A DNA stretch of 64,000 nucleotides from Gnetum montanum (taxonomy: Eukaryota; Plantae; Gnetophyta). The stretch lies in contig MNCI01003108.1 in NCBI GenBank assembly GCA_015680685.1, forward strand, positions 238,241 to 302,240. Reading direction: 5' to 3'. Below, piece by piece: positions 1 to 48,888 of this stretch. The notes beneath the pieces are model-generated. The model was given only the letters and a program-made list of their open reading frames with translations. It was not told the origin of the DNA and did no database searches. Each line of letters begins with the position of its first letter. The first letter of the stretch is position 1. Position numbers and translations under genes: made by a program.

Positions 1-194
1 TACATTCCCTTTTCTTCATAACCGCCAAAGTTTTAATTGTTAAATTCACATCCCTATCATTCAAAGTGCCTCTCAAATTCATGTAATTACCCTTGGATAC
101 ATTAATTCTTGTTAATGTCCTCATTTTACACATTAATTTCAAGAAAAATCATTAAAAATTCGATCTCTTTCTGGTGTCTTCCTATAGTTGAGAC

Positions 195-319
195 GAGATA
201 TTGCGTACGCAATATCGCGTCCCATGAGATATCACGTACGCAATATCGCGTCCCATGAGATATCGCGTACGCGATGTATCGTACGCGATATCGCGTCCCC
301 TGTTCCTATAAATAGGAAC
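195..319 (+). promoter_or_regulatory. Putative internal promoter: 31-bp tandem repeats of the GATATCGCGTACGCGATATC palindrome plus TATAAATA (307-314)
   Basis: Units at 195-225, 226-256 and 257-300; same motif and same motif-then-TATA order as the LTR U3 at 3705-3836; TATA lies within the inverted repeat GTTCCTAT-AA-ATAGGAAC. Confidence 0.6.
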
Positions 320-780
320 CCCCGCCGCAACACTTAGCTTCATTTGGCATTTACGCAGGGGGAAGTTTTTGAATTTTTTCTCTGCGGCTTGCGCTTGAGT
401 GACCCTTGCTTTTTTAGCTATATCTCGCGCGTTGGTACTCCGATTTGAATTCCGTTTGAACCTGCTTGAACCCGGAGTGTTCAGTTTAGTCGTGGGGGAG
501 AGACACTTGCCGAAAAGTGCCTAACTTTTTTGAAATTTTTCGTCGCCCAACGGACATCAATTAGGGTAATTAATACTAACACTTACACAAATTGTGCCAA
601 AAATAATACACCCTTAAGTATACCGGGATATTAAAACGAATATCCACCTAAGTCATAGGACCCATCATTATAATTTTTGGGCACGATCACACAATAATAA
701 ACGATCTTAATTAAGGCAAGTAGTAAGGTATAACTTGATTTCCTAAACAACCTTACTAATGCTGGCCCGTGTGATTGCAC

Positions 781-3510
781 ATGGCCCCGAAACGCTCCTA
801 GCAGAAGAGTCCAACACAAGGTGGAGCAAAAAAACCTAGGAGAGGTCGAAGGCAAGTCCCTGTCGGACAACATAATGAACAGGAGGTGCATTCATTCAGC
901 ATCCATCAAGATGAACCTCCTACTAGACGATTCGGGCAGGCGGAAGGAGGAGCTGCTGCGCCTGAACTGGGACAACAGCTCACGTTGCCCCCGGAATGTG
1001 TTCAGACTATTCACACGGAGTCCACAATCGCTTCAGTGATTGTGGAACTCAACTTCGAATCTTTTGCAGAGTTCGCTCCTGAGGCTGTTAGGGATCACCT
1101 CAAAGGGTCTTCCTTATGGCCCGTCCTCTCTGAACAAGCTGCCTGGTACTTAGGAGAAACGTACCTATTCTGGCACAATAAGGAGTAGGGCACCACGGTA
1201 AACATTGGTGGTGTGACAGTGGATTTTTCTTCACAGGCAATTTTGGAAGTGTTAAACCTTCCGAATTCAGGCCCCTACGTTGCTCAGTTATCCACCCGAT
1301 CAGACCCTGATGTGCGAAAGGATTGGCTAGAAAGGGCTTATGGCAGAGATAAAGCTTTTGGTGAGCTAACCACGGAAGAGAGAGTTTATTTTAAAATCGG
1401 AACCTATCACCTCTTCCCCACGAAAGGTTTAAAAAGAATATCAACGTACGCGACAAGAGGATGTGCAGTGTTGATGGGAAAGGTTAATGCTAACCTTCCT
1501 CATCTATATTTGACGGAGATCCTAAGGCGATTCGAAGAACGGAAGACAGGAAAAATGGCACTCCCTTTTTCCTGTCTTATCAGAAAACTGTGTTGTCAGG
1601 CTGGGATTCGAGGATATACAAATGACGTTTTCCGAAAGGCCCAAAATGCTTCTTACGCTGAATTGTTAAAGGCGCCAGCTCCAAGAAAGAGCACTGGCGA
1701 AGAGTTGGGACCAGATGAAGAAGATGAAGAACAAATGACTGGACCTCCTGCGACTCAACTTGCAGGACCCAGTCAACCTCCAGCCACAGGTCTTAGCCAA
1801 CAACAAGAAGCAGGACCCAGTACAGGCCAGGATCAGCCGCCGCCGCAAGACTATAGACCATCAATGACCCATTTGAGGGCCATTGCTGAGACGGTTAGTT
1901 GGGGAAGTCGTGATGACGCCAATCTCTTCCGTGTCATCGATGATGCCAACCAGCCTANNNNNNNNNNNNNNNNNNNNNNNNNNNNNNNNNNNNNNNNNNN
2001 NNNNNNNNNNNNNNNNNNNNNNNNNNNNNNNNNNNNNNNNNNNNNNNNNNNNNNNNNNNNNNNNNNNNNNNNNNNNNNNNNNNNNNNNNNNNNNNNNNNN
2101 NNNNNNNNNNNNNNNNNNNNNNNNNNNNNNNNNNNNNNNNNNNNNNNNNNNNNNNNNNNNNNCGGAACCTCAATGACTCCTGCTGAACATGAGGATGTAT
2201 TGGACAGACTGCTTCAAATAGGACAAGTTTTAACGTCCCTGTTTGACATCCCCCAGGATGTAACAGCAATTCAGTCAGACCTCATTTTGACAAAGGGGAA
2301 ACTGGTCATATCCGAAGTAAGGGCTAAGGATGCTGAGGCTGAAGTGCAGAAATTACAAGAGCAGCTCATCGCCTTACAAGCAGCACAGCGGGATCCCTTG
2401 TGATTGGTTCCCGCGGACCAGTTAAACAATTTTAAAACCGAGCAACTAACCAAACTAATTGCAGAAAATAAGAAGGTGGCAGAAGAAAAGGAGACGGCCA
2501 CTTGGGATGCCTCCGCAGAAAAGGCGCAAACTCATGCGCATCTTAAGGCACTCAAGACCTTGCAAGAAGAGAATAAGCAGTTGGTTGCAGATAACCTTCG
2601 GTTGACTTCTGTGGAAAAGCAAAAGAATGTTCTCGATGAGCACTTTCATTGGCTGCGAGAACAACTCATCCGAGTCAACCAAGATGTAAGCCGTTTAGCC
2701 AGAGAAAATCGGACCCTCTCAGTGGAGGAGGTACGCGCTATTCGGCAAAAATCAGCCATCGAGATTAGTGTGTGGCAGAATGAGGCTAAACGACATGAGA
2801 AGCTGAAGGAGCACTTCCGTGACCAGGTGGGGATGTATAAACAGATCCTGGAGACAGAGATCCATATGGCCAAAGCTCAAATCAACAACATCAGTGCCTA
2901 GCACACTGATTGGGGGGCCATTGTGGACACTTATGCCTATGCCCACCAGGCGGAAATTAAGAACCAGGACCTGCAGATCCAGGACTTAACTGAATACATG
3001 GAGTTGACAAACCTTCGATGTGCCAACCTGGCCATGTTAACAGCAAGATGCCCGAGGTCAGAGCTCGAGCAGCAGGTAGCTTCCACCCACATCAAATATG
3101 AGGCAGAATTTGCAGAATGAAAGAAGTTGGCTGAAAAACTAGATGTTGCAAATTCTGAACTCGCGGTGGTAAAAGAAAGCTACCAAGGACAGAAAGATAT
3201 GGCAACCGACTTGGCTCGATGGCTAGTAGAACTTCACGAATACAAAGACAGAGCCAGAGCCTACGAAGAGGAACGACGGGTGTTCGCAGCATGGTACGTC
3301 AAAGCTAATCAGATGTTCCCGCAACTACCTTGTCCGTGGGAAGTGCCGACTCCATCAAACATCGGAGCATCAGCATGGACAGCACAAAACCCTCGGACCA
3401 AAGAGGAGAAGCTCCAGGCTATTGTTCAGTGTCATCAACCTTCAAAGCTTGGAGCATGTGACAAGGGGAAAGCACCCATGGAGGAGCCACCGCCACCAGG
3501 AACTACATGA
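781..3510 (+). pseudogene. Retrotransposon 3' accessory (env-like position) ORF, ~909 codons: basic N-terminus, putative plant transposon protein (Transposase_32-like) domain, acidic/P/Q linker, long coiled coil
   Basis: ATG at 781 (MAPKRS); ORF-track pieces 886, 1213, 2404, 2923 and 3127 share one frame, separated only by single TAG/TGA codons (CAG/CGA deamination-type). Motifs 'VNIGGVTVDFSSQAILEVLNLP' and 'LPFSCLIRKLCCQAGI'; ends EEPPPPGTT*. N gap at 1958-2162. Confidence 0.8.
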
Positions 3511-3681
3511 GTTCCACATTTTTGTAGTTGTAGCATTTTTTCTTTGTGTTGTGTCTTCCCACACTGCGGCAATTGTCCATTTCTTTTTCTAGTTAATAAT
3601 CCCATACCTATCCACTGTGTAATCACTGAAGCTTGTTCTCTTTGTAACTCGAGGACGAGTTTTTATTCAGTCATGGGGGTA

Positions 3682-4357
3682 TGATGAGACGCGGTTTGCA
3701 CAAGCCGCGATATTGCGTACGTGATATCGTAGCCGATGAGATATCGCATCCCCCGCGATATCGCGTATGCGATATCGCGTCCTTCCCTACGATATCGTGT
3801 ACGCGATATTGCAGTCCACCACCATGTCTATAAATAAGAGGCGGCTCTCCCTTATTTGGGGATCCCAGTTTTGGTGTAGCGAAGCTCTGGCAGTTTGATC
3901 CCTCTATAGTTAGAATTTTTCCCGTGTCTGCCCGCAGTGTGATGAATGTAATTGTACGGTGTCTTTATTCGAGTGTGCCGTACTTGGACACGCACATGAC
4001 CGGCAATAAAGATCGAGATTACTTCATCATTGCAGCATTCACTTAGTTTATTTANNNNNNNNNNNNNNNNNNNNNNNNNNNNNNNNNNNNNNNNNNNNNN
4101 NNNNNNNNNNNNNNNNNNNNNNNNNNNNNNNNNNNNNNNNNNNNNNNNNNNNNNNNNNNNNNNNNNNNNNNNNNNNNNNNNNNNNNNNNNNNNNNNNNNN
4201 NNNNTTTCTTACCCTTTTCCTCTTAGCTTAGCTTAGTTAGTATTATTTTCCACTGCCTTCAGGAGTAACATAGATTAGAACACATCATACACCTCATCTA
4301 GACTAAACCATACGTGACATATGCAAAACTAGTTTAGATGGGAAGACAGCGAACTAA
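3682..4357 (+). repeat. 3' LTR of element A (family A), 3' end truncated
   Basis: Starts TGATGAG after the PPT; GCGATATCGC repeats, TATAAATA ~3829, AATAAA ~4005; homology to 9669-10490 stops before the CTCATCA terminus. Confidence 0.85.
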
Positions 4358-7300: not shown

Positions 7301-7756
7301 GCATCATGTATAATGACATAGGGTGCAACTGCATGTAAAAAATATGAGTAGTTAGAAGCAAAACTACCGTAATATGTAGATCATGTGATGAATCAAAAAG
7401 TGTGTAAAAGTGTCTATACATAGCAACCCAAAACTAGGAGGTAATCTAGTGGTTGATTTCAAATAAATGCAATAATTCCATCATATGCATGAAACCACAA
7501 AAAGCCCTTACAAGTGCATACATCAATAGAATGGATGAAATAGAATAGCTCAGAAGCTAACTCTTTGATGTAAAAAATGTACAAGAAGTAGAAATGAATT
7601 GGTGAGAGTTAGAGATTTCAAAGACATTTAAACTAGAGCCTCTTGAACTAAAAAAATTATGAGAATCACTTGAATACATGTTCTTGAAGAATGGAAAACT
7701 AGTAATTATGAATGTCTAGCTTACATAATAATAAAAGTAGAAGTTGCTAATTGTGG

Positions 7757-8965
7757 TGGTCACTCATTCAATGGCATTTTGTAAGTCCATTATAAGCTTT
7801 GAACTCATGTCCTATGTTTGTAGTTCTAGAGTGTGCAATTGAGCTTATTACACCTAGGTTTGCATCATTTCCACCTATGTCACACTTCTAAGTTTGTACA
7901 TGTTTTGAGTTTTTTAGAACATTTTCAGCTTTGTTTGAGCATCCTAGGATCCTGTTGATATGTTTCTTATTATTTTAGCTTTCATCTGGTACTAGTGGTG
8001 AGAACTGTAGTTTGGGATTATGTTGACTACCTTGTGTTAGTGTAAGCACACTAACACACCTATCTATTAGGCCTACTTTGACCACTTTTCTCATAATGTG
8101 ATTCAAGCTAGCCTAGGATACATTGATAGAACTTCATTGATGCCTGGGTGATAGTGAACCTCTATCATTATCTCATAAAAACTATAAATACCTAAGATGA
8201 TCTCTCACATTCAAAAATTCATACTTAGATATTTTCATTTGTTTTTAACATATGGTTTGTGTAAAGAGCTCTTCTTCCCTTAGATAAGTTGATTTCCTTC
8301 CTATCTAGTATATATATTTTGAAACATCGCTTTCACAAGTAGAGTTAGACTCTATCAAAGTGCTACCTTGCTTACATGGTTTAGAATTATTTGGTTAAAG
8401 TAGAGTTTAGTATTTATGTGATGAATAAAGCTTATGATTTTATTTTCATTCTACCATTGATGCTTTAAACATTAAAATACTAAATATTTAATTAATTCTC
8501 ATTTTATCTAGTTATAATGATTCATCCTTATCCCAAGAGGTTATAACTATATGGCATGATGTTGGACCATTGAGGTTATGACTAAGAGCCATTTATTGAT
8601 TTTTGTCTACGGTGTTGCACCTATCCCATAATGGATTTTAACATGTGTGAGTGATTATGACCATTGCACATATTCCCATGAGAGATTGTGGTGCATGTGC
8701 TTTTCTTCTTATTTTATTCTTATATTCATAACATCCATGAAAATTATAATATATGAACTTATAAATACTCTATCCATTCCCACCATGATAACATAGATTT
8801 TCATTGTATGATATGTATTATAATCTCTTTTATATTTATTAAACACAATGATAGAAAAAAGTATTCTTGGAAATCCACTTCACATTATTTTCAAAGCTTA
8901 CTACTGGATTGCACCACATTCCATATGATATAATTTCATTTTCATAGCTCATGAGAACCCTATCA
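7757..8965 (+). repeat. 5' LTR of element B (family B)
   Basis: Colinear with 21349-22517; ends CCTATCA followed by the PBS; start decayed (+/- a few bp). Confidence 0.8.
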
Positions 8966-14932: not shown

Positions 14933-17636
14933 ATAGGTAATCCTTATGATATTTCCTTTTCTGTTATTGTGTATGTGGAAAAACGAATTAACGTGCTTTA
15001 TGAATTCTTATCCAATAAGCTAATGGTGGATGGATGAGTTACAAATACAATGATGATGTAATGGTATGAAATAGTTTGAAAGTGGAGCCTTAATTGATGT
15101 AATATCCACATGATAGAATTTATCCACCCACTTTTCCTTTATTAATTATTGATGAATCAAACTCAAATTTAGTGGAGAAATAGGACACACATTGCAACCT
15201 ATTAAAGCTTATCCTATTGGAATTGTGGGTAGGTGGTGGGTCTACACCTTAGGTTGTGAGATCTAGAATCTTGAATGAGTGCTTGGTCATTGACAAGAAA
15301 AGGATATATCATTAAGGGTTCTTATGATCACTATATGAGTCTAATCAATGTGATTGGACCATGTGCACGTGCTACGATGCCTAAACACCCTAGTGAGAAG
15401 AGATCTATGATCTCATCGACCTATGTGTGTCATGTGATGAGGGATGAATTCTCATATTTCATGCAAGTCGAAGACTCTAGGTGATAATCTGGCACTCTAG
15501 TCATTTTAATGATTCCCATGTACTATTCAAAAATCCTCTTCTCATGAAAGAAAAAAAATATAAAAAATGAATGAAAAATAAAAAGAAAAAAAATCTATAT
15601 ATATAAGAGAAAAGAATAAAATAATATGGAAAAAGAAGAAAAAAAAAGTAATAAAACAATAACAATGATGAGAAGATGAGGTAATTAGAAGAGCATTATA
15701 GCTTCAAGCTTATTGATCTACACGAATTGGTATTCATACCACCCCAAACCAATCTTATGATTGCTCAAATTAACATCAAAATAAGTAGTTTAACTAATAC
15801 CTATGTAAACCTTTCTCATGTTCACACTATTTCCTTGATCACTTAACTTCCAAAGTGTCATATTCCAAAATAAACTCTTTTTCAATCCTACCAATGGCCA
15901 TAAAGGCCTAGAAGACTCTTTCTTAATGAACTTTGGTAATGTTAAATGAAGCTTCCACCCAAATACCAAACTCATTTGCTTCCAAGGATTAAGATCATAA
16001 CCTTTAATCCAAACTATGATCATATCTAAATCTAAAAAATTCTAATTACTTGATCATAGCTTTGTAATCATTGTTGGGACATGGTATTGGTTAGCACAGC
16101 TAGAGAAATCAATAAGAGATTCCGGATAAAGAAAAATTTAGGAAACTTGTTGTGCATACATGCACATATGGAGGAAAATGAAACTGGAATCTTAAATTCT
16201 AGATGATATGGAGCTTTTTACCTTGGTTTAGTTTTACCAATTATTAGACCTTAAAATAATCAATGGCAGATTTCATTGGTAAGTGGTAGGTGTGATCTTT
16301 TTCTTGAAAGGAAGACTTGGAGATCAATCCCTATTTTATGAATAAGTAGTAATGAAAGGATGTGACAATGGATCTCTTATGGAGTGCAGGATATGCTCAC
16401 ATGCTTTCATGAGCTAATTGAATGGTGTAGTGAAGATCTAATGATGTTGCACTTTCACCTTCTCTCTCATGTTCATCATTTTTTCTCCATTCCTTTCTTT
16501 TTACTCTATGCATTATTGTATGTGGTAGGAAGTCAATCGAGCAAAGTAGAGGACAAGATTTGGTCATCCAAGGGGATGAACTCATGTTGGGTGTTGATGT
16601 TTAATTCATTATTGGAAGTCCATGGGTGTCTCATCAAAAGGTTTCACAAGGTAAAGAAAGGTAGGTGCCTGCTAAGGAAAGAATCCACTTGTGAATCCTT
16701 GGTGGCTTACATTATAAAAGAGTGATCTTAATCTTATCTCCTAGAATGGTAGTGGTTGCATGACATAAGGCACTTGATTGGTATTCCACTAATATGAGTG
16801 TTAAATCTTCAAGCTTCAAAGTTTAATCATGACAAATCCTTCCTAATTTATCTTACTTATACCTATATTTAAATATTTGGTGTTATTTTCTCATTTCTCT
16901 AACACCTCTTTCCTAGTTGTTAATTCATTGGAATGCACAATATTGATAATATAGTTTAATTTACATGATCTTGAACATCATCTAAGGTAAGATTATAATG
17001 TTTTGGTTGTCTTTCTCTTCTTGTATCTTCTTTGGTTGATCCTTGGTGTTTTAGATGTATTTTGTCTTTTATTGTGACCCTAAAGATCATTGGAGATAAG
17101 TTGCATACACAAAAAGTGAAAATTATGATTTTCATCATTTTGGAGGATGCATTGATGCACCATGCATTAGCACAAGAATACTAGTGCACCTCCTACATTA
17201 ATGAGCCACTATAAATCGGGGGTAACCTATAAGTCATTTCTAATGCATTTTTCTTCCTATTTTTTGTTTTCCTTATCTCTGATACCATGAGTAAGCAAAA
17301 CTCTACTGAATTTTTACCATGAGATTGGATTTTATGGTTATTTTGAAAGCCTTATTCATGGTTCTTATCCTTGGTATTCTTAATATAGTTCAAGCCTAAG
17401 GCCTTATAACTTAGTCATGGGGAGAGGCATCAATCCAAGTATGTATTTAATGAACTTGGTAGTTATTTAAATATTTTGACATTACATTTTACTTACTCAT
17501 ACATGTTATGATTTTATAGTTATGATGATGTTTTCCTAAGTGTTCTTGAGGGTTATGTTTATAATTGTTTTGATGTGCATTTTTTGCAATGGTAATATAA
17601 TACATAAAGAAACTCACTTGATTTTTAGGATCTTCC

Positions 17637-20600
17637 ATAGCTCACCATGTTATGATGATTGTAATCCAAACTCCATAGACCAAGAAGGAAGGAGGTGGAA
17701 ATATATCAATCCTTTATCTATGAACTTGTGTATGAACCACCAATTTTTGAAGAGAAGGATGAAGAAGAATATAGATCACCAAATCCTGAAAAGACCTTGG
17801 AAAGACCTCCATCTAGAAGTAGATCAAAAGGTAGATTGTCATATTCTCAATCTTTGAATTGAGAATGTGCATAGTAGAAAGCTATTGAACAAGTCCCAAA
17901 GGAGCTGGCAAGTGATGATTTAGAGACTCATGATGTTTAGAAGGCTATGACTATGAATGATATATAGCAACAAAAAATCCATGAAGAAAAGGATTATCAT
18001 TAATTCCTTAAGCTTGGTCCACCTGATCTCAAGGAGTCACTAAAGTGAATAGGATTCTATGACTATGTCACCCAATCCTTTGTTTGTTACTGGCATGAAA
18101 TAGAAGAGTTCTACCTCAACCTTACAGTAGACTATACCATGTCCTTTATGAGTGGGATTCTTATGCCTATTTCAACATGGACAATTTCTAAAGTCATAGG
18201 ATTTTCAAATAAGCCAACAAATAATTAGTGGTCATGAACCTAGAAGATAGAGCCTTAGCTCAAAATGAAGATCCTTCTTGAGGTTTTTGATATGGATAAG
18301 ATAGATGTAAAGATGTCCAAACTTCCCCTAATTCATAATACCATGTACAAGATCATCACAGATAATTTCTAATACACTAAAAGACCATCGGATATCTTTT
18401 CTCGAGGGGCCAAGAGTATGATGATGATGAGAGGGAAGTATTCCATCAACATCCCTTATTTTATTTACAAGGCCTTCATTCAAAAAGTTGAAGATGTATC
18501 CTATGATAAAAAGAAGGTATATTGCTTTCCAAGGTTAATATGAAAACTCTATGAATTGGTAGACATACTCAACCATATGGAAAAGCATTCTACATTTGCA
18601 ATAATGGTGGATTAAGAGAATGTCATAGTAGTAGTCCCAAGGCAACATCCTAAGGTCATTGGAACATTACCTAGTTCGAAAGATTATATGCCTTCCATAT
18701 AGGCATCATGCATCTGGTTATTAGACTAACTTTTCATGCATCAATAAGAAGCACCCTCCATACCTTAAGCTTCATAATATACATAGGTGTTGTGGCCTAG
18801 TAAATCAACCTATTAATCACCTAGTTTTAGCATCAGGCTTGTAGTGGTTTTTGGTCTACTATACACATTGAAGGTGAGGAGTAAGCTACCACAATTCATA
18901 TCGAAGGATCATAGGATCTTAGTAAGAATCTTTTGTGCATGATGAAAGCCATTGTGGCAGGGAAAGCTATAAGGAAGGAGCAGAGAGTTAATATACATGT
19001 TAAGATGCTACTAAGAAGCATTAATATCATAATTAAGGTCCAACTTATCAAAATAGAGGCTAAGTTGGAAACAACTGATGATGGTAGAACCTTCTATCTA
19101 AGTTACATGGGAGTTAGGTAGAGGTATGAAAATTGCAAGAGTAGTTAGAAACCATCATACCGTTGGTACTAGCATCTTCCATAATCACTCTAGAGGTATG
19201 GATCTATTGGTTTTAGTATGCACTTTAGAAATTCTTACTCTACTCATTTTAAATAACTATGTTACAGTTTAGAAGTAAGACAAAGAAATGAATTTAATAA
19301 GCCCAAATTCAAAGTGATAGAAAACCATATTTACATAAGGAAATATAGTAAATACAAGTGAAAACATGAAGGCAAAGTTCAAACTTCAAGAAAATACAAA
19401 GATCAAGTGAAGCTAAAATAGATTTTTTGTAAAATAGGGACTAAATCCATGTAGTTTATATTTAAATTATTATGTCACATAAGATAAGATAGGAAATACT
19501 ATTATTTTTGCTTTTATTAAAAGATTGATGGGTAGATGTAATTAGAGAATGACCCCAATCTCTCATTTCTCTTAAATTTCTAGCCAAAGTTTTCATAAAA
19601 TAGGCATGTGCCATCATATTCTATTATGGCCCTATCATTTGGCTATAAATATGTGGGCAGATCATGTTTTTAAGTGAAGTTACTTCATAATTTATCCCAT
19701 AATACCATATCCTATTCATCCCATTATTCCATATCCTATTTATCATCTACAATCCCATTCTCAATTTCACAATTTATCTTATTACAAGTTCATCCATCCT
19801 CAACTCATAATATTCACCAATTCTCATTAATGAAAGTTGAAAATCACATTCAGTGCCACACTTGTGTTACAAATTTTAACCATCAAATCAATTCAAATTA
19901 ATTCTAAATTTTTTAAACAAGTAGTTTGTTGAAAAAATTTTCTATCAAGTATTCACTCACTCAATAACTCTCTCAAATCATAGAGATATTCATCTTCCAA
20001 AATAACAATTTCTATTTTAGATGCTAAAAAAATTTATTATAGACCCTATTTCAAGCCATATTTGAATCATTAAATAGATTGCAATTAATCTAAAATTTTA
20101 CAATCTAATAGATTACAGAATGGGCTTTCTAATAAGCTCAAGATTAGCCTAAAACACTTCTAAATTGCGAAGATATCATAATTGCAAAATTAGAAAAAAT
20201 TAGTTGTTATTAATTAGGTCACTTGCATCATCTGAAATATTGGGCTGTAAAAAATTTGCAAAAATAAAAAATATTTTTGAATCTCATTAAATCCCTATAA
20301 CATCTATAAAATTAAGTGCTTGTAATTGGAATTATTCAAGGCATGTCATGTGGGGGAAGAAGTAATGTTTTTAAAGGACTACTTGAAGAGGCAAATTCAA
20401 ATGTTAAAGCATCAATCCCAAAAATGGGAAAAATGAGTAGGATAAAGAAAATAAAGTGCTCTTTCTTTTTGAATAGGTACAAAGACTTGAGGATAAGAGT
20501 TAGATCATGGCCTAATTTTAGGACAGGTACCTTCATACAAAAAAGACAACCATGGAGATTAATTAGCTTAGAAAGATCTACTTAATTATCTAGCCAACCT

Positions 20601-21205
20601 AGGATGTCAAGGTGTGTAAATTACCCAAAATTTTAGCTCTACTTAATGAACTTGTAATGGGAGAGAGGCATAAGGTGAAGGATAAATTCAACACCTTACA
20701 TGCCATACTCTAATAGATGGCTATAAGGGAGTCAACCCTATAAGAAAAGATGGACGTTTTAGAGAACATGTGCATCCTCTGCCATGAAGCAATAGTCAAA
20801 GTCCTTAAGAGAAGAATCAAGGAGACATAAGAAGATGTACAAGTGAAGTGGAGGAGGTATTTATACATGATTAAAACTTTAACAAATAGACCACCCATTG
20901 AGCTAGAAGAAAGACTTCATTGAATAGTAGTCAAGTTGGAGGTTGTCTAGTGTGAGCTCTCACAAGCTAGGATGAATCATGAGTAGTTTCAAGTAGATGC
21001 AAAAGAATGTAGACAAGTGCTTTTACAAGAGTAGGAACTTATGCATGAGAAGAACCACTAACTCCAAGCCAAAGTGACAAATCTCGAAATGAAATTGTAG
21101 AGATTCCATATGTCTACACCAAGCACTTCCGGTTTCTTCCCTTACTAAGTAGGTACATCAAGGAGATTCTATTCTCAACCACCATCCCCTAGAACTTCTC
21201 AATAA
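17637..21205 (+). pseudogene. Divergent accessory ORF of element B (Transposase_32-like domain ~18000-18580), interrupted at ~19.1-20.7 kb
   Basis: 'FLKLGPPDLKESLK*IGFYDYVTQSFVCYWHEIEEFYLN' aligns gap-free with A 'FAEFAPEAVRDHLKGSSLWPVLSEQAAWYLGETYLFWHN'; 'INIPYF...CFPRLI*KL' ~ 'ANLPHL...PFSCLIRKL'; ends PPSPRTSQ*. Confidence 0.65.
19117..20700. mobile_element. Unassigned AT-rich insertion (possible solo LTR of another family)
   Basis: Interrupts the B accessory ORF; imperfect inverted ends (GTAGAGGTATGAAAATT ... AATTCAACACCTTACA); TATAAATA ~19645; no clear TSD. Confidence 0.35.
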
Positions 21206-21348: not shown

Positions 21349-22517
21349 TGATGAGACATCCAAGGACATCTTGTAAGTTCATTGTCAGCCTTGAACTTAA
21401 GAATCATTTCACACACATTATGCTTGTAGTTTGAGTGTGTGTAGTTGAGGTTTATTCCTCCTAGTTTGCATCCTTACCTTCTCTATTATGCTTCCAAGAT
21501 TGGTGCATGTTTAGGGTACCTAGAATGTTTTTGTCTTTGCTCATGCATCCGAGAGCCCTATCAATATGCTCCATAGTGTTCTAGCTTTCATCTAGAATTG
21601 ATGATGAGAAGTGTAGTTTTGGGTGTGGGGGTCGGGGATGAGGGGTGGAGGAGGTGTCAGGGGTTTTTGGGATGGTGTTCTAACTACCCCCTGCTAGGTC
21701 TAGTTTGGCCACTTCACCCATAGTGTGATTTGGGTTGGCGTAGGCTACATTGACAAATCTTTGTTGATGCTTTAGCACTAGTGAACCTATGCCATTATCT
21801 AACAAAAATTATAAATACCTAGGATAATTTCTCTCACATAACAATTCATACTTAGACCTTTTCATTGGTTTTTAATATCTGGTTTATGTCAAGAGCTCTT
21901 CCTCCCTTAGGTAAGTTGATTTTCTACTTGTCTGATGTGTGTATTTTTAGTCATTACTTTTACAAGTGCAGATAGACTTTGTTAGAGTGCCACCTTGTTT
22001 ACGTGGCCCAAAATTGTTTGGTTAGCACAAATTTTAGTGTTTATATAGTCAATAAAGCTCATGGTTTTTTCTTTGTTCTACATTTGATGCCTTAAACATT
22101 AAAACACTAAAAATATTTAATTAATTCTTATTTCTTTAGGCTGTGATGATTCATCCTTATCTAAGAAGGTTATAATTGTATAGCATGGTGTTAGGCTATC
22201 AAAGTTGTAACAAATACTCATTTATTACTTTCCATGTGTGGTGTTACACCTATGCCATAAGGGATAGCATTGCATGCGTATTTATTCTTGTTTTATTTTT
22301 ATATTCATAAAATCCATAAAAATTATAAAATATAAAATTATAAATACTCGCTCTATTTCCCATTTTCGTAACATGGGCTTTCGTTGTATGATATGTACTA
22401 TAATCTCTTTTATATTTATTGAACACAATGATATACATGAGTATTATTAGTAATGCACTTGACATCATCTCTAAAGCTTACAATTAGATCACACCATGGC
22501 CAGTGGGACCTGTATTA
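21349..22517 (+). repeat. 3' LTR of element B
   Basis: PPT TAGTTATGGAGAAA then TGATGAG; homologous to 7757-8965. Confidence 0.8.
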
Positions 22518-25210
22518 GGTGATGAACAAATGACCAACAACCTTTGCATGGTTGTATGATAAAATAATAAGTATTGACTTGCACATATTTCAACATCAAA
22601 TCTACATGTATCTAACCATTAACCCTAAGAGATATATGCATCAAAGATTAAATCCCAAATTGAAGCAAGCAATCAATAAGAAGATGAAAAAGCTCCTTAA
22701 GACAATGTTTATCTATCTTCTAAATGATAGTGAATGGGTAAGCTCACTCTTTATCATACCAAAGAAAGGTGGTCAATGGAGGATCTGCATCAATTTTTCG
22801 TTATTGAACATGGCAACCTTCAAAGATAATTTTTTGTTGTCATTCATGAACCAAGTGTTAGATAATATTACAGGATAGAAATATTACAACTTATTAGATG
22901 GTTATAGTGGATATAATCAAATCCATATAATCCTAGAAGATCATGACAAAACCATACTTACATGTCCCTAAGGGACTTTTACACATAAAAAGATGTCTTT
23001 TACTCTTTATAATGTACCTATAACCTTCCAATACCTTATTCTTAGCATCTTCTAGTAATATATTAGCAATGATATGAAAATATTTGTAGATGACTTCTCC
23101 ACCTATGATTTTAAATTTAAGTAATCATTGAACCCCATGGAAAAAGTATTTAAGTGATGCGTAAAAACCAATTTGAAGTTCAACTGGTAGAAAAGCCATA
23201 TGATGGTCTAAGAGTGCATTGTTCTTAGGCATTGAATATAAGAAAAATAAATGGAGGTAGATCTTAAGAAGATAAGGATGATCTAAGGAATATGAAAAAA
23301 TCTAAAAATAGTGAAAGATGTCAAATCATTCCTTGGACAGATAGGCTAGTATTGAATATTTATTAAGAACTTCTCAAAAATTGCAAAATAACTAGTAAAT
23401 CTGACAAAGAAGGATGTACCATTTGAATGGACCAAAGAATGTGACAATGCATTCGAACTTCTAAAATAGAAGCTTGTGAAAACCCCAATTCTACGAGCCC
23501 CTAATTTACCTTAGTCATTCCACATTATGACAAATGCATCCAAATTCATCTTGGGAGTAGTACTTAAATAATTATATGATCAGAACATTCATATTATATT
23601 CATTGTATAAGTAGAAGTATTGTAGGTGTATAATTGAACTACACCATCATAGAAAAGGAGCTGATGATTATGGTGTATGCCTTAGAAAAATTTAGGTACT
23701 TGGATACCTAATTTTTATGCACATTGACCATAGTGTGATACAATTCCTGGTAGATAAAACAATGATTAGCTCGTGTATCAAAACATGGCCAGTTATTGTA
23801 TAACAGTTTTACATTATGAAGATAGACAAAAAGAGGATCAATAATGTAATAGCTAATCATTTATCTCAATTATAATGAGATAATAAAGTTGATAAAGAGC
23901 CACTCTTTGATCAATTTCTTAATGAAGTACTATTTAGAAAGAGAGCAATGATAACATTTGATGTAATCAAGCCATGGTATGCAAACTATATCACCTATCT
24001 AACCTTACAAGAAGTTCCTACTAAATTGGATCAATGAAGGAAATAATGGCTTTTACACTAAGTCAAGCACCATAAGGAGACAAAGGTTAAACTCTGCAAA
24101 GTGTATGTAGATGACTTGGTGTAATGATGTGATCCTGATAACAATTAGTTCAAATTTTTAAGGATGCTCATGGGAGGCCTTATGAAGACCATTATGCAGA
24201 ATGAAGAATGATCATAGAAATCCTCATGTTAGAATTTTCTAGCCAATAATCTTTAGGGATGCACATTTTTTTTTGTCAATTCCTATGAATGATGCTAACA
24301 TGATGATGGAATGACTACTAGGCTTGAGGATCCATAATAATGTTTCCAAACATTAGAATCCTTTGACTTGTGGGAAATTGACATTATAAATTCCATCATA
24401 CCCATGTTGAATGGGAAATACTACATCATTATTGCTATAGACTATGGTACTAAATGGGAAAAGGTTATAATAGTAATAGATTGCATAGTACCAACAATAG
24501 CCAAATTTTTCCATCAACAAGTTTGGTATGCCTAGGATACTTATCTCTAGTAATAAAATCCACTTTATAGATACTTCATTCAAAAAGGTGATGCAATACT
24601 TAGAGTGAAATAAAAACTTACTACACCCTACCATTCCCAATCCAATAGTTAAGCTGAGATAACAAAGAAGAAGATCACATGAATCCTTATGAGGATAATT
24701 AGCAAATATATCAAAGAGCAAAGCATAAAACTCAACGATGCCTTATGGGCTTATTACTCCACCTAGAAGCTTCCTATAGGCTACTTCTTATACAATTTAG
24801 TGTACAATAACCTTCCAAATCTTTCCATCCAAATAAAGTTACATACACTCAACATAGCCTATGAACTTGACCTCAACATCAACCTAGCACAAAAGGAATG
24901 ACTCATGAATCTTAATATGTTGGATGAAAATAGAAGAGTAGACAATACGATAAATGAAATGAAAAAAGCTTATAACAAACAACATCATAATACTAAATAA
25001 GACAATTAAAATTTTAACCTAGAGATAAGGTCCTCTACTAGAATTCCACTCGTGTACCTCAACATAAAAAATTCCAAATACTATGGGAAGGATCCTACAT
25101 TATACATTGTACCTTCAAATTAGACATCATGCAAATTTATCACCTTGATTACCCACAAAAACTTATATTAGTTAACACATAATAAGTAAAAGCATTCAAG
25201 GATCCCTAGG
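22518..25210 (+). pseudogene. Ty3/gypsy pol remnant: RT, RNase H, integrase (element D)
   Basis: 'SEWVSSLFIIPKKGGQWRICINF', 'LDGYSGYNQI', 'FVDDFS', 'SFLGQIG', 'NYTIIEKEL', 'IAIDYGTKW', 'WEGSYII'; RT-RH-IN order; many stops and frameshifts. Confidence 0.92.
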
Positions 25211-25330: not shown

Positions 25331-26221
25331 TGATAAATCCAATTTTCTTTTGCAAGAATGATATCCTAGATATGATATTGCATCTACAATATCCTAGCCA
25401 TCCTACATCATTGTTGATATGATGTCTCGGGAATTGTGTGACCCTATAAATACTCACACTTGGTCATACTAGCAACAACAATTTCATTCCACCCTTAGCT
25501 AGACTCTTGTAGTTTGTTTTTGTAGTTAGCAATAGTGTGAATGCCTGCAGTGTGGTGTTAAGTAGTTATATGGCATCTTTATTCTAGTAGATTATACTTC
25601 GGCATGGTTCATAAGTGGAAATAAATATCAAGATTTTTTTCCACCATTGTAGCATCCACATAGTTCTTTTATTGCACTTAGCTAATTTCTTACTTAGTTT
25701 AATTTCCATGTTCACTTTAGCTTAGTTCTTTACATTTCCAAAGCACTTTACATGTTCATTAGTAAGGCAGAATGAGTACAACTGGTTTTGAGCATTAAAT
25801 GTAATCATTTGGTAACCCAATAGTGGTTTCACTTAAGTCACTCAGTACTGAACTCATTTGGTAATTCCAATAATGGTTACATAAGCCTAAGATGTGACTG
25901 ACAAGCTAGGATTTGATGCTCATCAGCATAGGCTAGAGTAGATTTACATTCGTGTCATTACTTAGAATTAGATTTTAATCTCACTTTCACTATATTTACA
26001 ACTAGGAGTAAATTAATTGAAACAACATCAACATATCATATGCCTCACTAAGAGTTAACCATACACTTGAACTTCACTAACTCAAAGTAGGAAGACAATG
26101 ATCATGAGCCTACTATCAACTCTTAGCATACTTACATTATCAATTCACAGATTATGATCTAGTTGTGTGTTTGCACTCATGACTTGTATTGTGGAGTGTT
26201 GGGATACTCTACTACTCATCA
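25331..26221 (+). repeat. 5' LTR of element C
   Basis: TGATAAA...CTCATCA; colinear with 45973-46871. Confidence 0.9.
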
Positions 26222-42316: not shown

Positions 42317-43944
42317 CTTTGTTTGGAACAATGACTAAGAGACTAACCCATTCACTATCTGCGGTCAAATAGAGGAATCCTACCTTTAATAGCTTTTCCA
42401 ATTCCTATATTACTACTTCTTTGAGCTTACGATTCAATCTTCTTTGAGGCTGGCAATGTGGTTTGACAGCTGGATCTGTATAAATTTAGTGTTGACATAT
42501 ACATGGGTTGATGCCTGTTATTCCATTATAGGACCATGTGAATGTTATTAGCCATTTATTCATCACTTCCAATAATCTTTTCTTTTGTTATTTATCAATG
42601 TTGGTGTTAATGATTACTAGTTTTTTATTATTCAGAAAAGCATATACTAGTACCTCTAGTAGGGCTTTTAACTCTAACATTTCTTGTTCAAATTTGTATG
42701 GTATCTCTAACTATTCCCACTCAATGTCTTCTTCTTAATGTAAATGCACATAGGGGTGTTTCCTCCTTAACTATTCTAACTTATTGGTTTCTTCAACATA
42801 AGCATGTATGATTTGATTGGTTAATTCCATATATATTTTAGATTCTGTCTCTTTATCGTTAATCTGCGTCTAGGTGCCTTCTTGTTTGGTAGCTGCCACA
42901 TACAAACATTGCTACACACACATTTCTTCTACACATTGATTGCATGATGTATTAATTTCTTATTTTATAGCCTATATTTTTTTTCACGCAATTACACCCA
43001 TTATCACTATATGTTATACAAGAAACTTGGCATCTTTGTATAATTCCAACTTCATCTTCCTTGAAAATTTTCAAGGACAAGTCTCTAATTCCTAGCTTAG
43101 CATCCATAGTGCTAAGCCATGCTCTTCCCATGATTATAGGAAACTCTCCCTTGTTTTTCCCCATGTGTATTACTAAGAAGTAAAAAGGGTAAGACCAGCC
43201 ACATATGGTGGTGATGAAATCATCCACTTTTCTAAGTGGAATAGTGATTGACTAGTCTACAAGGTCTAATCAGATATTGCTCAAAAATCAAAATTTTTTA
43301 GCCATGATGTTGCATCTACTATGTTGCATCACCTACGATGTCAAAGCTATGATGTTGCATCTCCGATGTTGTGGTCATAAAAATCTATATATACATAGTG
43401 AGCTAGAAACATTTTTCATTCTACCATTTCATAGTATGGGGAGTTCATGTAGTTTTTCTGAGCTCTGACACTTGAACTTTCAAACACCATAACTTCCTCA
43501 CCACAACCTTGATTTGCATGATTCTTGAACCCAGTTGAACTTGGAGTGCTTAACTTAGTTGTGGGGGGGGGGGGGGGGGGNGATAATGAGGGTTGAGCCA
43601 AAATTTTCTAATACCATGAGATAATATTAAGGGTAAGTATAAGAATAAATAAGAATATTTTAATCAACTAAGAAAATAAAAGCTAATAGACTTAACCGAT
43701 TCTCCTAACCAACCATTCAATGTTATAATAAACAAGAAAATGAAAAATGTGAAAGGTCATAACAATCAAAGATATAACAATTAAGCATTTCTTTTTGAAT
43801 TTCTCTAACTCTATAATCATAATAAGGGTCATAACTAATAATAAAGATAGAAATTAGATTAAACCAAGGATCCGAGAAAGGATTATGAGCTATTAGAAAC
43901 ATATTTAAAATCCTTTGATAACCTTAAATTCTTAATGATTGTAA

Positions 43945-45758
43945 ATGGCTCCTAAAAGGCCTACCACAAAAGGACACAAGCATTAGGTTCTACACCTGCA
44001 AGTAACATGCCAACAATAAAATAGTAGCAATAAGTAGGACTTGATGGGTCAACACCTACTGGTGATAAACCTGAATAGTAAGCTCCACCACCACAACAAG
44101 ATTATCGACCTTTAATGAGTCACCAACAATAAATTGTAGAAACCATTAGCTGGGGAATAAGGGAATGTTTTGCTCAATAGAAAGTAAGAGACAACTTTGT
44201 AAGCTCTATGATCTCCATAGCACCTACTAGTGGGCAAGTATCTTTGCAGGTAGGAGAAGATGATGAATAGACACAACAAATCTCAGGGAATGCTTCATCA
44301 TTCTAGGTAATGTTAGAAACCAAGGAAGGTGCCACAATAGTGTTCATGCAACACCAAGATACAACAAGAGTAGTAGAACATATCAAAGAATCTTTTAATG
44401 TTCCTATTGTGCCACCTGTAGATATTTTTGAAGCTAGAGATGTTCAAATGTTAATGATCCTAATAGAGTATGAGGATGTCCTTGACATACTGCTGTAGAC
44501 GAGCCAAGTTATGCATAATCTCTTCGATATCACCTGTGGTATCACTATAATGCAATCTAATTTCATAGTCGCAAAAGAAAAGTTGGTCATGGAAGAAATA
44601 AGGGTAGAGCATGTAGAGAATGAGGTGCAGAGGCTACAAGGAGTTAGTAGCTTTAAGAGCAGAGAAAAGAGACCCTGCACAATATGTAGCCCTGAACTAG
44701 CTAGAAGCTTCCATAAATGATCAGGTTAGGTAGTCAATCATAAAAAATATTTAGGTTGAGATGGAGAATGAGAAGGGTGTGTGGAACACATTTATGGCTG
44801 AATCCCAAACACATGCACATGCCAAAGCCATCACTACCTTGGAAGAAGAGAATAAAAGCTTGCTATTAAAAACACAAGGTTGATAGACATTGAGAAGGAA
44901 AAGAATGTTCTTGAGTAAAGTATTTATCAGTTGCAAGAATACTTAATCTGCCTAAACTAGGATATGAACAAATTGGCCCAAGAGAAAAGAACCTTGTCAA
45001 TGGAAGAAGTTCATGCATTTTGCCAAAAGTCAGCAATTGAAATAAGCGTGTGGAAAAATGAGGTCAAGAGGCATGAGAATCTCCAGATGGGTATATAAAA
45101 CTAGATCAATCAGAAGGAGATCCAGATGGTGAAGGCCAAGATCAACTCCATTACATAAACACCAAATTATTAGCCCATTCTAAATAGCCTTGACCATGTT
45201 CACTTTGCCGAAGTGAAAAATAAAAACCTACAGATAGAAAATTTAACAAAATACATAGGGTTAGCCAACATTTGATATGCTAACCTGGCCATGTTAATAA
45301 TAGGTAGGCTAAGAAATGAGCTTAAGCAATAGGTAGCTATAGTATATGTTATGTATGAAATGGACTTTGTAGATCAAAAGGACACCTAACAGAAATTACA
45401 TGTGGAAATATTTGTGTTAGAAATTATTAAGGCTAGCTACTAGGAATAGAAAGTGATTGTAGCAAACTTGACATGCCATATGACAAACTATTAAGAACAT
45501 AGAAAGGTGGCCATAGCTTTTGAAGAGGAGAGAAGGCAATTTGTGGCTTGGTACGTGAAAGCTAACAAGATGTTCTCACAACTACCATGCTCATGGGATA
45601 TACCAATGTCATCCAACATCATCAAATTTTCATGGATAGTACATCATCCCTAATCAAAATAAGAAAAGCTTTAGGTGGTCCTAAACAAATATCAATTCCA
45701 AGAGCCTAATGATAAGGAAATGAATCGAATGGAGGAGCCTCCATCACCTGGAACATAA
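43945..45758 (+). pseudogene. Accessory ORF of element C (internal deletion of the Transposase_32-like domain)
   Basis: Starts MAPKRP; 'ETISWG', 'EYEDVLD', 'QKSAIEISVW', 'AWYVKANKMFSQLPCSW'; ends EEPPSPGT*; clearly homologous to 781-3510. Confidence 0.85.
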
Positions 45759-45972: not shown

Positions 45973-46871
45973 TGATAAATTCAATTTTTTTGCAAGCACA
46001 ATATTGTAGATCTGATATTGCATCTATGATAACGTAGCTACGATATCATAGATCATCCTATTTCATTGTTGGTGCAATGTCTTAGAAGCTATGAAGCCTT
46101 ATAAATACTAGCACATGGTTGTACCAGTAACAACAATTTCATTCCACCCCTCGCTAGACTCTTACAATTTGTTTTTGTAGTTAGTGATAGAGTGAATTCC
46201 CGCATTGTGGTATTAAGCAATTGTACGGTATCTTTATTCGTGTGGATTGTACTTGGACATAATTCATGAGCGGAAATAAAGATTGAGATTATTTTCCACC
46301 ATTACAGCATCCACTTAGTTCTTTTATTACACTTAGCTAATTTCTTACTTAGTTTAATTTCCATATTTACTTTAGCTTAATTCTTTACATTTTCAAAGCA
46401 CTTTACTTTACATGTTCATTAGTAAGGCAAAATGTGTATGACTAATTTCGAGCATTAAGTGTAAATGTTTAGTAACCTAGTAGTGGCTTCACTTGATTTA
46501 CTTGGTAGTGAACTCACTTGGTAATCCCAATAATAGTTACATGAGCCCAAGATGTGATTGGCAAGCTAGGACTAGATGCTCATTGCCATAGGCTAGAGTA
46601 GATTTACATTCCTGTCATTACTTAAACTTAAATTTTAATTTCACTTTCATTATGTTTACATATTGAACCTAACAACATTAACATATCATATGTCTTACTA
46701 AGAGTTAACCATACACTTGAACTTCACTATCTCAAATTGGGAAGATAAAAATCATGAACCTACCATCAACTCTTAGCATACTTACATTATCCATCGACGA
46801 ATTACAATCTGGTCATGCACATGCACTCGTGACTTGTATGGTGGAGTGTTTGGATACCCTACCACTCATTA
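45973..46871 (+). repeat. 3' LTR of element C
   Basis: PPT AATCATGAGGGTA then TGATAAA; ends CTCATTA followed by the TSD. Confidence 0.9.
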
Positions 46872-48888
46872 AACTTTTTTTGTACTTTTTTGTTTTACAA
46901 TGTTTTTTTAATTTTTCTTTTCTTATAAAATTTCCTTTTTTGAAGTCTTTTTGTTATTCATGTTGTATGTTTTATGCTTGAAGTTTTATGTTTTATATTT
47001 TTTATCAATAAATATTTTCACTTTAATGTAAAAAGCAAGTTTATTTTTTTGGTTATTTCTTATGCTATTAAGATATTGGGTAAATAATTATGTAAAGTAG
47101 TGAGATCATATCATCCATCCCTTTGGTCTCTATGAATAAGATACTTTCTTCATGAAAGTAATATGGTTATTCTCACATGAAAACTAAAATTAACTTATGA
47201 TTACGATTCTTTGATGAAAGGGGGAAGGATCAATAGAGAATAGAAAATGGTGTGACATCAAGAAGACTTGTTGATTACTTGTACTTCATTTATGGTTCTT
47301 ACTACTCCATGTAGATATATCATTGCTTGTGTTTTGATTTTGATGGAAGGATATTATCTAATAAAGTTGTTATCTTACTATGTCACTAGAAAGACATGTT
47401 ACCCATGCGTGAATGTTTTATGTTACCCACACCTGAAGGTAGGCTACTTCCAAGAATCTTAAGGTCTTTTGGACTAGTTCCATCATGTGACTGGAGAGAC
47501 ATGTTATCCAAGCCTAAAGGTGCATCACTAATGGGATTAGTATTTGTCTATGGGACTAGAAAGACATTCATCCATACTTGAATGCATCCCTCTAACGAAT
47601 GACCAAGAGTTCTCAAACTTAATGTTTTAATTAATTAATTATTTTCTTTTACTGAGTGATGGTGTTTTCATATGGTTGTGGTTACTCTCATGGTGGTAAG
47701 TTCAAGATGATACAATGCAATGTCACTGGCAAAGAAATGGACTCTTTCTAAAACTTGAATAGATAGGTATGATGGTCATCTTAATCACAATTATCATAAG
47801 AACCTGTTATGGACATGAAAAGGTATCTCATGTTCAAATCTCTACAATTCCTTCTCATTCCATTATTCACCTCACTACTATATGTGATTATATACCTAAT
47901 GATCTTATTTAGTATAATGTAGGATCTTGATAACAAGAAGTTGTATGGCTATAGAACATTGGATTAATTGACATTCAATCTTCAACATGCTCATGGACAT
48001 CTTGTGAAATGGTTATACAAGAGTATTTAGGATAAAAGCTTACTTTAGAGAGAACCCACTTGTATAAATTTTGGACATCTAATCTATGCACCACCTCCAT
48101 ATGCCCAAATCATCAAAGCACAACTTCATGAATTAATTGCATCATTACTTTAGCTCAATCTCTTTGTAAACCTCTTATTTAACATCCCAACTCTCAAGAA
48201 TTATGCTTTAATCATATATCAAATTACTATCAATGCTTGATCATACTATTTTCATGTCTAAACACTTCCTATTACTCTTGTTTGACCCCAAGTTTGCTTT
48301 GAAATTCACAAAAATTAGGCTAGAAATCAAAAGAAAATCTTCAATGCAACTACCTATGTCAACATAGCTTCATTGACACATCAATGTTGAAGAGATCATA
48401 AAAACCTATAAATAGCCATGGAAGGTTAAAAATTTTTGTCATTTTTCTCATTCTATGAAGGGAGTTTTTATTATTCTAAAACTCTAGAAACTTTTAAGTA
48501 TGATATCTCACACACCAGGCACTCAATTCACATTATTTGAAAAACTATGACTTTCCAGAGTCAAGCTCTATGTTGTGGAAACTAGAAAGCTACAATTTTT
48601 TATACTTTTAAATGCTTAATTTTTTAACTGATATAATTAATCAAAAATAATAATTAAAATATTGATAATTTAATAATAAAATAACTTCCTTAGAACCTCG
48701 AAAATAACATTGATAATTTAATAATAAAATAGTTACCTTAGGATTTCTAGAACAATAAGATGTAATAACTTAGGATTGTTAGTATCAAATTTTTTAAAAT
48801 CAAGACAAAAGCCAAGGACAATCAAGGGGAATAATGCCTAATATATAAGTAATTAAAGACTAATGGCCAATATTTTTTGTGAATATAG

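What the first reader, a model, noticed from the sequence alone, without database searches (positions are those of the whole stretch)
195..3510. Accessory gene built as its own transcription unit inside Athila-like elements (four copies)
Seen: between pol and the 3' LTR, elements A (781), B (17637), C (43945) and D (48889) carry homologous ORFs. A and C start MAPKR, D has a decayed equivalent, and all end in a PP(P/S)P(G/R)T-type tail 140-220 bp before the LTR. Each is preceded by a TATA box (307, ~17210, ~43386, ~48407) and by splice signals. The protein is a basic NLS-like N-terminus, a plant-transposon-protein-like domain, an acidic linker and ~400 aa of coiled coil, with no transmembrane segment in the A copy. 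Established: Athila elements have an 'env-like' ORF at this position. Inference: this is not an envelope but a separately expressed nuclear factor, for example an anti-silencing or chromatin protein, kept even in element B that lost RT.
Basis: partly seen in the sequence, partly recalled or inferred. Interest (0 to 1): 0.8.

Follow-up and report, generated by a model that had tools for sequence, protein, structure and literature searches.

The report
Athila extra gene with LTR-matched promoter
Four old, broken plant jumping genes of the Athila type carry an extra gene that likely has its own promoter, whose repeated DNA motifs match each element's own terminal repeat; such extra genes are known, and the idea that the protein would bind these motifs to switch its element on is untested.

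Summary
Real, but largely a known kind. Elements A-D are decayed Athila-like retrotransposons with a sense extra ORF ending in a proline-rich tail 143-219 bp before the 3' LTR. Copy A (781-3510) has five stops and a 205-N gap. It encodes a basic N-terminus, Pfam Transposase_32 (E 1.4e-10), an acidic linker and ~375 helical residues, with no membrane segment. C lacks the domain; B is homologous only in it. Between copies the ORF was constrained as strongly as pol (pN/pS 0.40-0.53 vs 0.34-0.46).

New here: the DNA just upstream of each internal TATA best matches the U3 motif array of its own LTR family (rank 1 of ~170 loci for A, C, D; weaker for B). RNA reads show sense transcription of sister copies, but no start pile-up and no splice joint.

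An internal 'ENV ORF promoter' (Athila6A), NLS-bearing Transposase_32 proteins (sunflower) and palindromes shared by LTR and env-upstream DNA (Sireviruses) are published. Anti-silencing or trans-activation is inference only. The scan noted similar self-promoted accessory genes in other genomes, not this one.

The parts
187..305 (+). A: CpG-rich array of palindromic GATATCGCGTACGCGATATC-like motifs, colinear with U3 of A's own 3' LTR
   Evidence: score 104, z 11.9; rank 1 of 168; CpG o/e 2.31 vs 0.28 window-wide
306..313 (+). A: internal TATA box, aligned with the LTR TATA at 3828 and with the internal TATAs of B, C, D
486..498 (+). A: polypurine-tract-like block 180 nt after the TATA; also in B (17411) and C (43555)
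   Evidence: (6 matches, 0.16 expected by chance)
566..780 (+). A: predicted 5'-UTR intron (GT donor at 566, branch-like CTAAT at 756, degenerate acceptor before the ATG); splicing not seen in reads
781..3510 (+). A: decayed accessory ORF, 909 codons, 5 internal stops, N run 1958-2162
1189..1608 (+). A: Transposase_32 (PF20167) domain, aa137-276
   Evidence: E 1.4e-10, 41.7 bits (curated cut-off 45)
2185..3315 (+). A: long helical, heptad-like region (aa469-845), conserved in C and D
   Evidence: pN/pS
3667..4356 (+). A: PPT and 3' LTR (starts 3682; TATA 3828; poly(A) site about 4026; match to relatives ends at 4356)
7754..8964 (+). B: 5' LTR followed by a decayed PBS (74% identical to the 3' LTR)
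17079..17423 (+). B: internal promoter-like region (motifs like B-family LTR U3, TATA 17209, PPT-like block 17411)
   Evidence: weaker than A, C, D
17662..21205 (+). B: decayed accessory ORF; Transposase_32-like part, ~1.2 kb interruption (about 19130-20330, by eye), helical part ending PPSPRTSQ
21349..22496 (+). B: 3' LTR
22760..24961 (+). D: pol remnant (RT, RH, INT)
25331..26219 (+). C: 5' LTR followed by a decayed PBS (83% identical to the 3' LTR)
43255..43634 (+). C: internal promoter-like region (motif array matching C's LTRs, TATA 43385, PPT-like block 43555, GT donor 43633)
43945..45758 (+). C: decayed accessory ORF lacking the Transposase_32 domain
45973..46869 (+). C: 3' LTR
48276..48413 (+). 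D: internal promoter-like region matching U3 of D's 3' LTR; TATA 48406
48889..51609 (+). D: decayed accessory ORF with both domains; 3' LTR starts 51829

Best explanation
This is the decayed 3' accessory ('env-like') gene of Athila-like retrotransposons, likely transcribed from an internal promoter that mirrors the element's own LTR promoter, and its soluble protein is predicted to be a nuclear oligomer that would bind the family-specific motifs at both promoters to keep the element active. Shown: the ORF, its position, its domains, the lack of a membrane segment, pol-like purifying selection, and the match of each internal motif array to its own LTR family. Inferred, about 0.75: a transcript starts about 30 nt after the internal TATA, loses a 5'-UTR intron and ends at the poly(A) site of the 3' LTR. 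Inferred, about 0.65: the protein is nuclear (basic N-terminus) and multimerises through the long helices. Inferred, about 0.3: the Transposase_32 domain reads the palindromes, making a feedback loop like foamy-virus Tas or VANC.
For: Constraint: A vs C pN/pS 0.40 (CI 0.35-0.46, 423 codons), A vs D 0.51 and 0.53, against pol RT 0.34 and RH-INT 0.46; third positions diverge most. Promoter match: own internal promoter ranks 1 of 168-177 non-LTR loci for 4 of 7 LTR queries (A, both C LTRs, D). In the reverse scan over 214-227 loci the top hit is the element's own LTR, or an LTR related to it, in 7 of 8 runs. In A the similarity is colinear up to and including the TATA and stops after it. The motifs differ between families: A's internal array shares 38 8-mers with A's LTR and 2, 2 and 0 with the C and D LTRs. 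TATA and a PPT-like block align across copies. RNA: in the strand-biased run X21 the 953-1632 part of the ORF is covered in the same orientation as the polyadenylated LTR RNA (26-146 vs 3-11). Sister-copy reads differ from A at the degenerate acceptor site (11 of 13 reads in X24, 21 of 23 in X21, 5 of 5 in X22). Precedents: Athila6A 'ENV ORF promoter' (PMC4977677); PF20167 protein with NLS (PMC11728184); Athila domain and VANC modelled as coiled-coil pentamers (PMC13547354).
Against: No splice joint 566-780 and no pile-up of starts near 340 among 231, 374 and 77 reads of three RNA runs; the reads that cross 780 are unspliced. Upstream of the ATG, X21 coverage leans to the antisense orientation. 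B is weak: its own LTRs rank the promoter 2 and 44, and one B-family query missed it. C's array also matches A-type LTRs (score 38 vs 46). C lacks the domain proposed to bind DNA yet keeps matched motifs. No fold or sequence link to VANC, MAIN or any DNA-binding protein was obtained. pS is saturated (0.74-0.78), so the ratios describe old lineage divergence, not young copies. The alignment scoring was my own and chosen after seeing the motifs.
Confidence: 0.45

Rival explanations
1. Same internal promoter, but the shared motifs are read by host transcription factors so that both promoters fire together; the protein has a non-DNA-binding job (particle scaffold, nuclear import of the cDNA, or tethering to chromatin for integration).
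For: Sirevirus repeated motifs resembled host stress-factor sites (PMC2829016 section 9). About 40% of the protein is helical rod, and C keeps the rod but not the globular domain. Modelled accessory TE proteins had many host contacts (PMC13547354).
Against: The motifs differ sharply between families of one genome, which fits a co-evolving private reader better than a conserved host factor (inference).
Confidence: 0.3
2. Classical env-like expression: the ORF is translated from an RNA spliced from the 5' LTR transcript; the internal array is a by-product copied from U3 by template switching or gene conversion.
For: [quoted passage not shown] Reads cover 1-305, upstream of the TATA. No start pile-up was seen.
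Against: TATA and spacing are kept in four lineages whose synonymous sites are saturated; a local donor follows the TATA in A and C; Athila6A has an annotated internal promoter. Reads on 187-305 are largely LTR cross-mapping (loose ends).
Confidence: 0.15
3. A's upstream block is a decayed 5' LTR of a small non-autonomous element (LTR-ORF-LTR), not an internal promoter.
For: 72% match to A's 3' LTR U3; A's pol is not in the window.
Against: After the TATA it does not resemble LTR R/U5 but matches C's internal block (442-498 vs 43511-43567, 72%), and C has a true 5' LTR with PBS 17 kb upstream.
Confidence: 0.05
4. A membrane envelope protein for cell-to-cell spread.
For: Position between pol and the 3' LTR; some plant env-like proteins have membrane segments (PMC7264820).
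Against: No hydrophobic 19-mer above 1.42 in any piece of the four copies; basic, non-signal N-terminus. The 68 codons under A's N run could not be read.
Confidence: 0.03

Closest known systems
Athila6A 'ENV' ORF with its internal promoter (Arabidopsis; PMC4977677, passages; 3' TSI transcripts in bioRxiv 2021.05.30.446350, passages)
   Same: Sense ORF between pol and the 3' LTR with its own promoter; extra PPT in the same region is reported for Athila4 and Calypso (PMC2829016).
   Different: The passages read do not describe an LTR-matched motif array; the protein here is about 900 aa with a ~375-aa helical rod that found no database relative.
Sunflower Athila 14 3' aORF(+) (PMC11728184, passages)
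   Same: Transposase_32 (PF20167) domain, predicted NLS, same position and orientation.
   Different: 487 aa there; no promoter analysis in the passages read.
Sirevirus repeated motifs (Ty1/copia; PMC2829016, passages and section 9)
   Same: Element-specific palindromes clustered before the LTR TATA and again upstream of the env-like gene, forming CpG islands; internal promoter proposed.
   Different: Other superfamily and other core motif; no internal promoter was identified there, whereas here a TATA follows the array at the same register as in the LTR.
Maize Grande gene23 and Retand TRP28 ORFs (PMC7264820 parts 1-2 of 3; PMC11963269, passages)
   Same: [quoted passage not shown]
   Different: Antisense, Tat/Retand lineage, Transposase_28 domain.
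VANC anti-silencing proteins (PMC12844716 and PMC13547354, passages) and foamy-virus Tas (PMC4929722, abstract)
   Same: Works-like models: a self-encoded factor that binds repeated motifs of its own element; Tas binds both the LTR and the internal promoter.
   Different: No sequence or structural link was shown here; analogy only.

Membership tests
Athila clade (Ty3/gypsy, OTA) | gag-AP-RT-RH-INT order between LTRs | tested here: met
   Retrotrans_gag, RVT_1, Integrase_H2C2 and rve in C, RVT_1 in D; order RT-RH-INT. A's pol is outside the window; B has no RT.
Athila clade (Ty3/gypsy, OTA) | RT placed in the Athila clade by phylogeny | not tested
   No reference RT set on hand; the RT motifs look Athila-like from recall only.
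Athila clade (Ty3/gypsy, OTA) | No additional RNase H (which defines Tat; PMC6317226) | tested here: inconclusive
   No RNase H family hit at E 0.01, but the native RH was not hit either; about 255 codons between RT end and integrase leave little room.
Athila clade (Ty3/gypsy, OTA) | PBS for tRNA-Asp (recalled) | tested here: inconclusive
   Decayed PBS-like words follow the 5' LTRs of C (26220) and B (about 8965); judged by eye against recall.
Athila 3' extra ORF (eORF-3'F) | Sense ORF between pol and the 3' LTR | tested here: met
   C and D; B after integrase remnants.
Athila 3' extra ORF (eORF-3'F) | Transposase_32 / Athila ORF-1 domain | tested here: met
   A: PF20167, E 1.4e-10, just under the curated cut-off. 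D and B by homology to A; no direct Pfam hit in them; absent from C.
Retroviral-type envelope protein | Transmembrane segment | tested here: not met
   Maximum KD19 1.10 in A, 1.42 over all pieces; 68 codons of A unreadable.
VANC-like anti-silencing factor | VANC/MAIN-type fold | tested here: inconclusive
   Single-sequence model pLDDT 38.6, no Foldseek match, no PDB sequence match, no PMD hit in Pfam.
VANC-like anti-silencing factor | Repeated, family-specific motifs in non-coding parts of the element | tested here: met
VANC-like anti-silencing factor | Sequence-specific binding and loss of methylation in trans | not testable with these tools
   Needs binding and methylation assays.
Independent transcription unit | Transcript start just downstream of the internal TATA and a spliced 5' UTR | tested here: inconclusive
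   No start pile-up or joint in short RNA reads from mixed, mostly 85-95% alike copies.

The most novel reading that the evidence does not exclude
Athila elements run a foamy-virus-like two-promoter circuit: an internal promoter and the LTR promoter carry the same family-specific palindromes, which co-evolve because the element's own Transposase_32/coiled-coil protein binds them and activates or un-silences both. The long-mysterious plant 'env' would be a private trans-activator, and each family's target motif could be read from the LTR/internal-promoter match.
Probability: 0.25. Interest if true: 0.8.

Novelty: new variant of a known kind. Interest (0 to 1): 0.42.

Why it matters
The function of the Athila 'env-like' gene is a long-standing open question, and Athila elements dominate many plant centromeres and pericentromeres. 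The gene, its internal promoter and its nuclear prediction are not new. What this window adds is a testable handle: in four diverged families the DNA before the internal TATA tracks the family's own LTR motifs, which names a candidate target sequence for the protein and extends to Ty3/gypsy a pattern published for Sireviruses.

Tried and rejected
No genome is held for this window, so no genome-wide copy survey or young-copy dN/dS. Three protein searches found no relative at E 0.001 (C-terminal part, longer and near lengths; aa60-305); these need shared words, and one search also missed the known Transposase_32 family, so they are weak evidence of novelty. The HMMER search of representatives never ran (queue full, 10 tries), and no language-model look-alike search of the helical part was obtained, so its relatives remain open. 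Single-sequence fold of the globular domain was uninformative; PDB sequence search gave only E > 0.3. Run search: no RNA holder listed; raw-read runs were laid instead. Joints from 272-297 to 3756-3768 are cross-mapping between the two motif arrays, not splicing. Rejected: LTR 9670-10490 as B's 5' LTR (solo LTR with 5-bp duplication); my first reading that B ends at 18770 (corrected); TATA count as evidence. Wright and Voytas 2002 was not held. Searches gave no paper on LTR-matched motif arrays at Athila internal promoters; subscription papers and supplements were not seen.

Full report
Setting. The window is a nest of old LTR retrotransposons, 35% GC and CpG-depleted (o/e 0.28). No genome is held. 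The run search listed 24 runs; 8 DNA runs under 4 organism labels hold half or more of the words of 2164-4050, so the family is shared by related species. I did not identify the host.

Element map. A: only the 3' part is in the window; ORF 781-3510, PPT, LTR from 3682. B: LTRs about 7754-8964 and 21349-22496 (74% alike), gag/protease and integrase remnants, no RT, three inserted LTR pieces. C: LTRs 25331-26219 and 45973-46869 (83% alike), PBS-like word, gag on the + strand, pol on the - strand inside an inverted block of about 35350-43262. D: pol at 22760-24961, interrupted by C, continuing to an ORF at 48889-51609 and an LTR from 51829. RT and PBS look Athila-like from recall; no tree was built, so 'Athila-like' is the right label.

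The ORF. A reads 909 codons in one frame with stops at codons 7, 136, 541, 707 and 780 and an N run at 1958-2162. Pfam on 5 pieces gave one clear hit: Transposase_32 at A aa137-276, E 1.4e-10, 41.7 bits against a cut-off of 45. The first 60 residues are 18% K/R, aa301-360 are acidic and Pro/Gly-rich, aa469-840 have 2% P/G. A single-sequence model of aa469-909 is almost all long helices (mean pLDDT 58). No 19-residue window is hydrophobic enough for a membrane segment: 1.10 in A, at most 1.42 in 7 pieces of the four copies. tblastn of A finds C (39% over 448 aa, E 5e-77) and D (29%, E 7e-40; globular domain E 1e-22) and not B. C has about 48 codons where A has 352, so it lacks the domain. B matches A's domain pairwise (E 3e-7), is then interrupted by about 1.2 kb, and ends in a helical part with the same kind of tail but no detectable homology. 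Stop-to-LTR gaps are 171, 143, 214 and 219 bp.

Selection. Pairwise, A vs C over 423 codons gives identity 0.61/0.74/0.45 by codon position and pN/pS 0.40 (CI 0.35-0.46). A vs D gives 0.51 (helical part, 411 codons) and 0.53 (domain, 214 codons). Pol of C vs D gives 0.34 (RT, 197 codons) and 0.46 (RH-INT, 506 codons, inflated by a frameshifted stretch). The two shifted frames give 0.67 and 1.30. So both parts of the protein were conserved about as strongly as pol while the families diverged. Synonymous sites are saturated, and these copies have since decayed neutrally.

The promoter. TATA-like words are near chance in number, but four of them align at the same place before the four ORFs. A PPT-like block follows 170-202 nt later in A, B and C (6 matches window-wide against 0.16 expected; three are these, two are LTR-adjacent PPTs at 3667 and 62700, one at 14022 is unexplained). 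A and C have a GT donor next; neither has a canonical acceptor before the ATG. Comparing 4 internal regions with 11 TATA-upstream regions, the best score was each time with the element's own LTR: A 104 (z 11.9), C 46 (z 6; A-type LTRs 38), D 44 (z 5.8), B 36 (z 5.4). Scanning 4,530 non-LTR windows, collapsed to 168-177 loci, with 7 LTR queries ranked the own internal promoter 1, 1, 1, 1 (A, C 5', C 3', D), 2 and 44 (B 5', B 3'), and missed it with a B-family solo LTR query. The reverse scan under two scorings put on top: A's LTR twice; C's 3' LTR, then a related LTR at about 54676 with C's 5' LTR second; an unrelated locus at 28151 just ahead of D's LTR, then D's LTR; and the B-family solo LTR twice. 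The match is strong for A, good for C and D, modest for B. The scoring was mine, set after seeing the motifs, and LTRs were masked by hand.

RNA. Three raw RNA runs and one contig set were laid on 1-4054. Reads come from sister copies: 14 of 2018, 11 of 2767 and 32 of 1871 are 99% alike or more. A poly(A) tail follows 4026 (113 reads in X22), which fixes the sense orientation; in X21 positions 953-1632 are covered mainly in that orientation, 409-816 mainly in the other. In the oligo-dT run depth is 4 over 545-680 and 26-53 over 953-1904, which fits splicing or simply lower conservation. Most reads differ from A at the acceptor site, in keeping with a family acceptor that A has lost. A second lay on 180-1100 at 80% (231, 374, 77 reads, 34 contigs) showed no 566-780 joint and no pile-up of starts near 340. 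Transcription of the family is shown; the internal start and the splice are not.

What is known. Athila6A has an annotated 'ENV ORF promoter' (PMC4977677, passages), while PMC7197481 (passages) describes ORF2 mRNA as spliced from the full-length RNA and polysome-bound. A sunflower Athila 3' ORF has PF20167 and a predicted NLS (PMC11728184, passages). Grande gene23 is a nuclear protein with its own promoter (PMC7264820, parts 1-2 of 3), and a regulatory role was proposed for Retand TRP28 (PMC11963269, passages). Sireviruses carry element-specific palindromes both before the LTR TATA and upstream of env, and lack the internal copies when env is absent (PMC2829016, passages and section 9); the same paper notes an extra PPT in Athila4 and Calypso. 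An anti-silencing role for LTR-element ORFs has been raised as a question (PMC12844716, passages), and Athila and VANC domains were modelled as coiled-coil pentamers (PMC13547354, passages and section 10). Foamy-virus Tas binds both the LTR and the internal promoter (PMC4929722, abstract). PMC6317226, PMC1142308, PMC3817159 and bioRxiv 2021.05.30.446350 were read as passages. No supplements were read. Eight searches gave no report of LTR-matched arrays at Athila internal promoters.

Verdict. The gene is real, not an envelope, and belongs to a known class; its own promoter is likely and has precedent. The family-by-family match between internal promoter and LTR is the new, testable point. The protein's role at those motifs is an inference with about one chance in three to four. 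Novelty: new variant of a known kind; interest 0.42.

Noticed in passing
window 35350-43262: C's pol (protease-adjacent DNA, RT, RH, INT and post-pol non-coding DNA) is inverted inside the element; the breakpoints are away from the N run at 39406-40286, so it is a real inversion or a mis-assembly.
   Followed up: partly
window 486-498, 17411-17423, 43555-43567: A PPT-like block sits in the predicted 5' UTR of the accessory gene; it may be the extra internal PPT reported for Athila4/Calypso.
   Followed up: partly
window 14022-14034: A further PPT-like word just after B's protease region, near where RT is missing.
   Followed up: no
window 9670-10490 and 14148-14921: Solo LTRs of the A-like family with clean 5-bp target duplications.
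   Followed up: yes
window 26668-32687: An LTR element of another type (LTRs about 84% alike, different PBS) nested just after C's PBS.
   Followed up: no
window about 19130-20330: AT-rich DNA with its own TATA-like word (19643) interrupts B's ORF; no homolog elsewhere in the window.
   Followed up: no
window 4005-4026: AATAAA followed by a poly(A) site used by sister copies; marks the R/U5 border of the A-family LTR.
   Followed up: partly
window 62567-62733 (- strand): An LTR with the A-type PPT context but a different U3 repeat, showing that U3 motif arrays turn over quickly.
   Followed up: no
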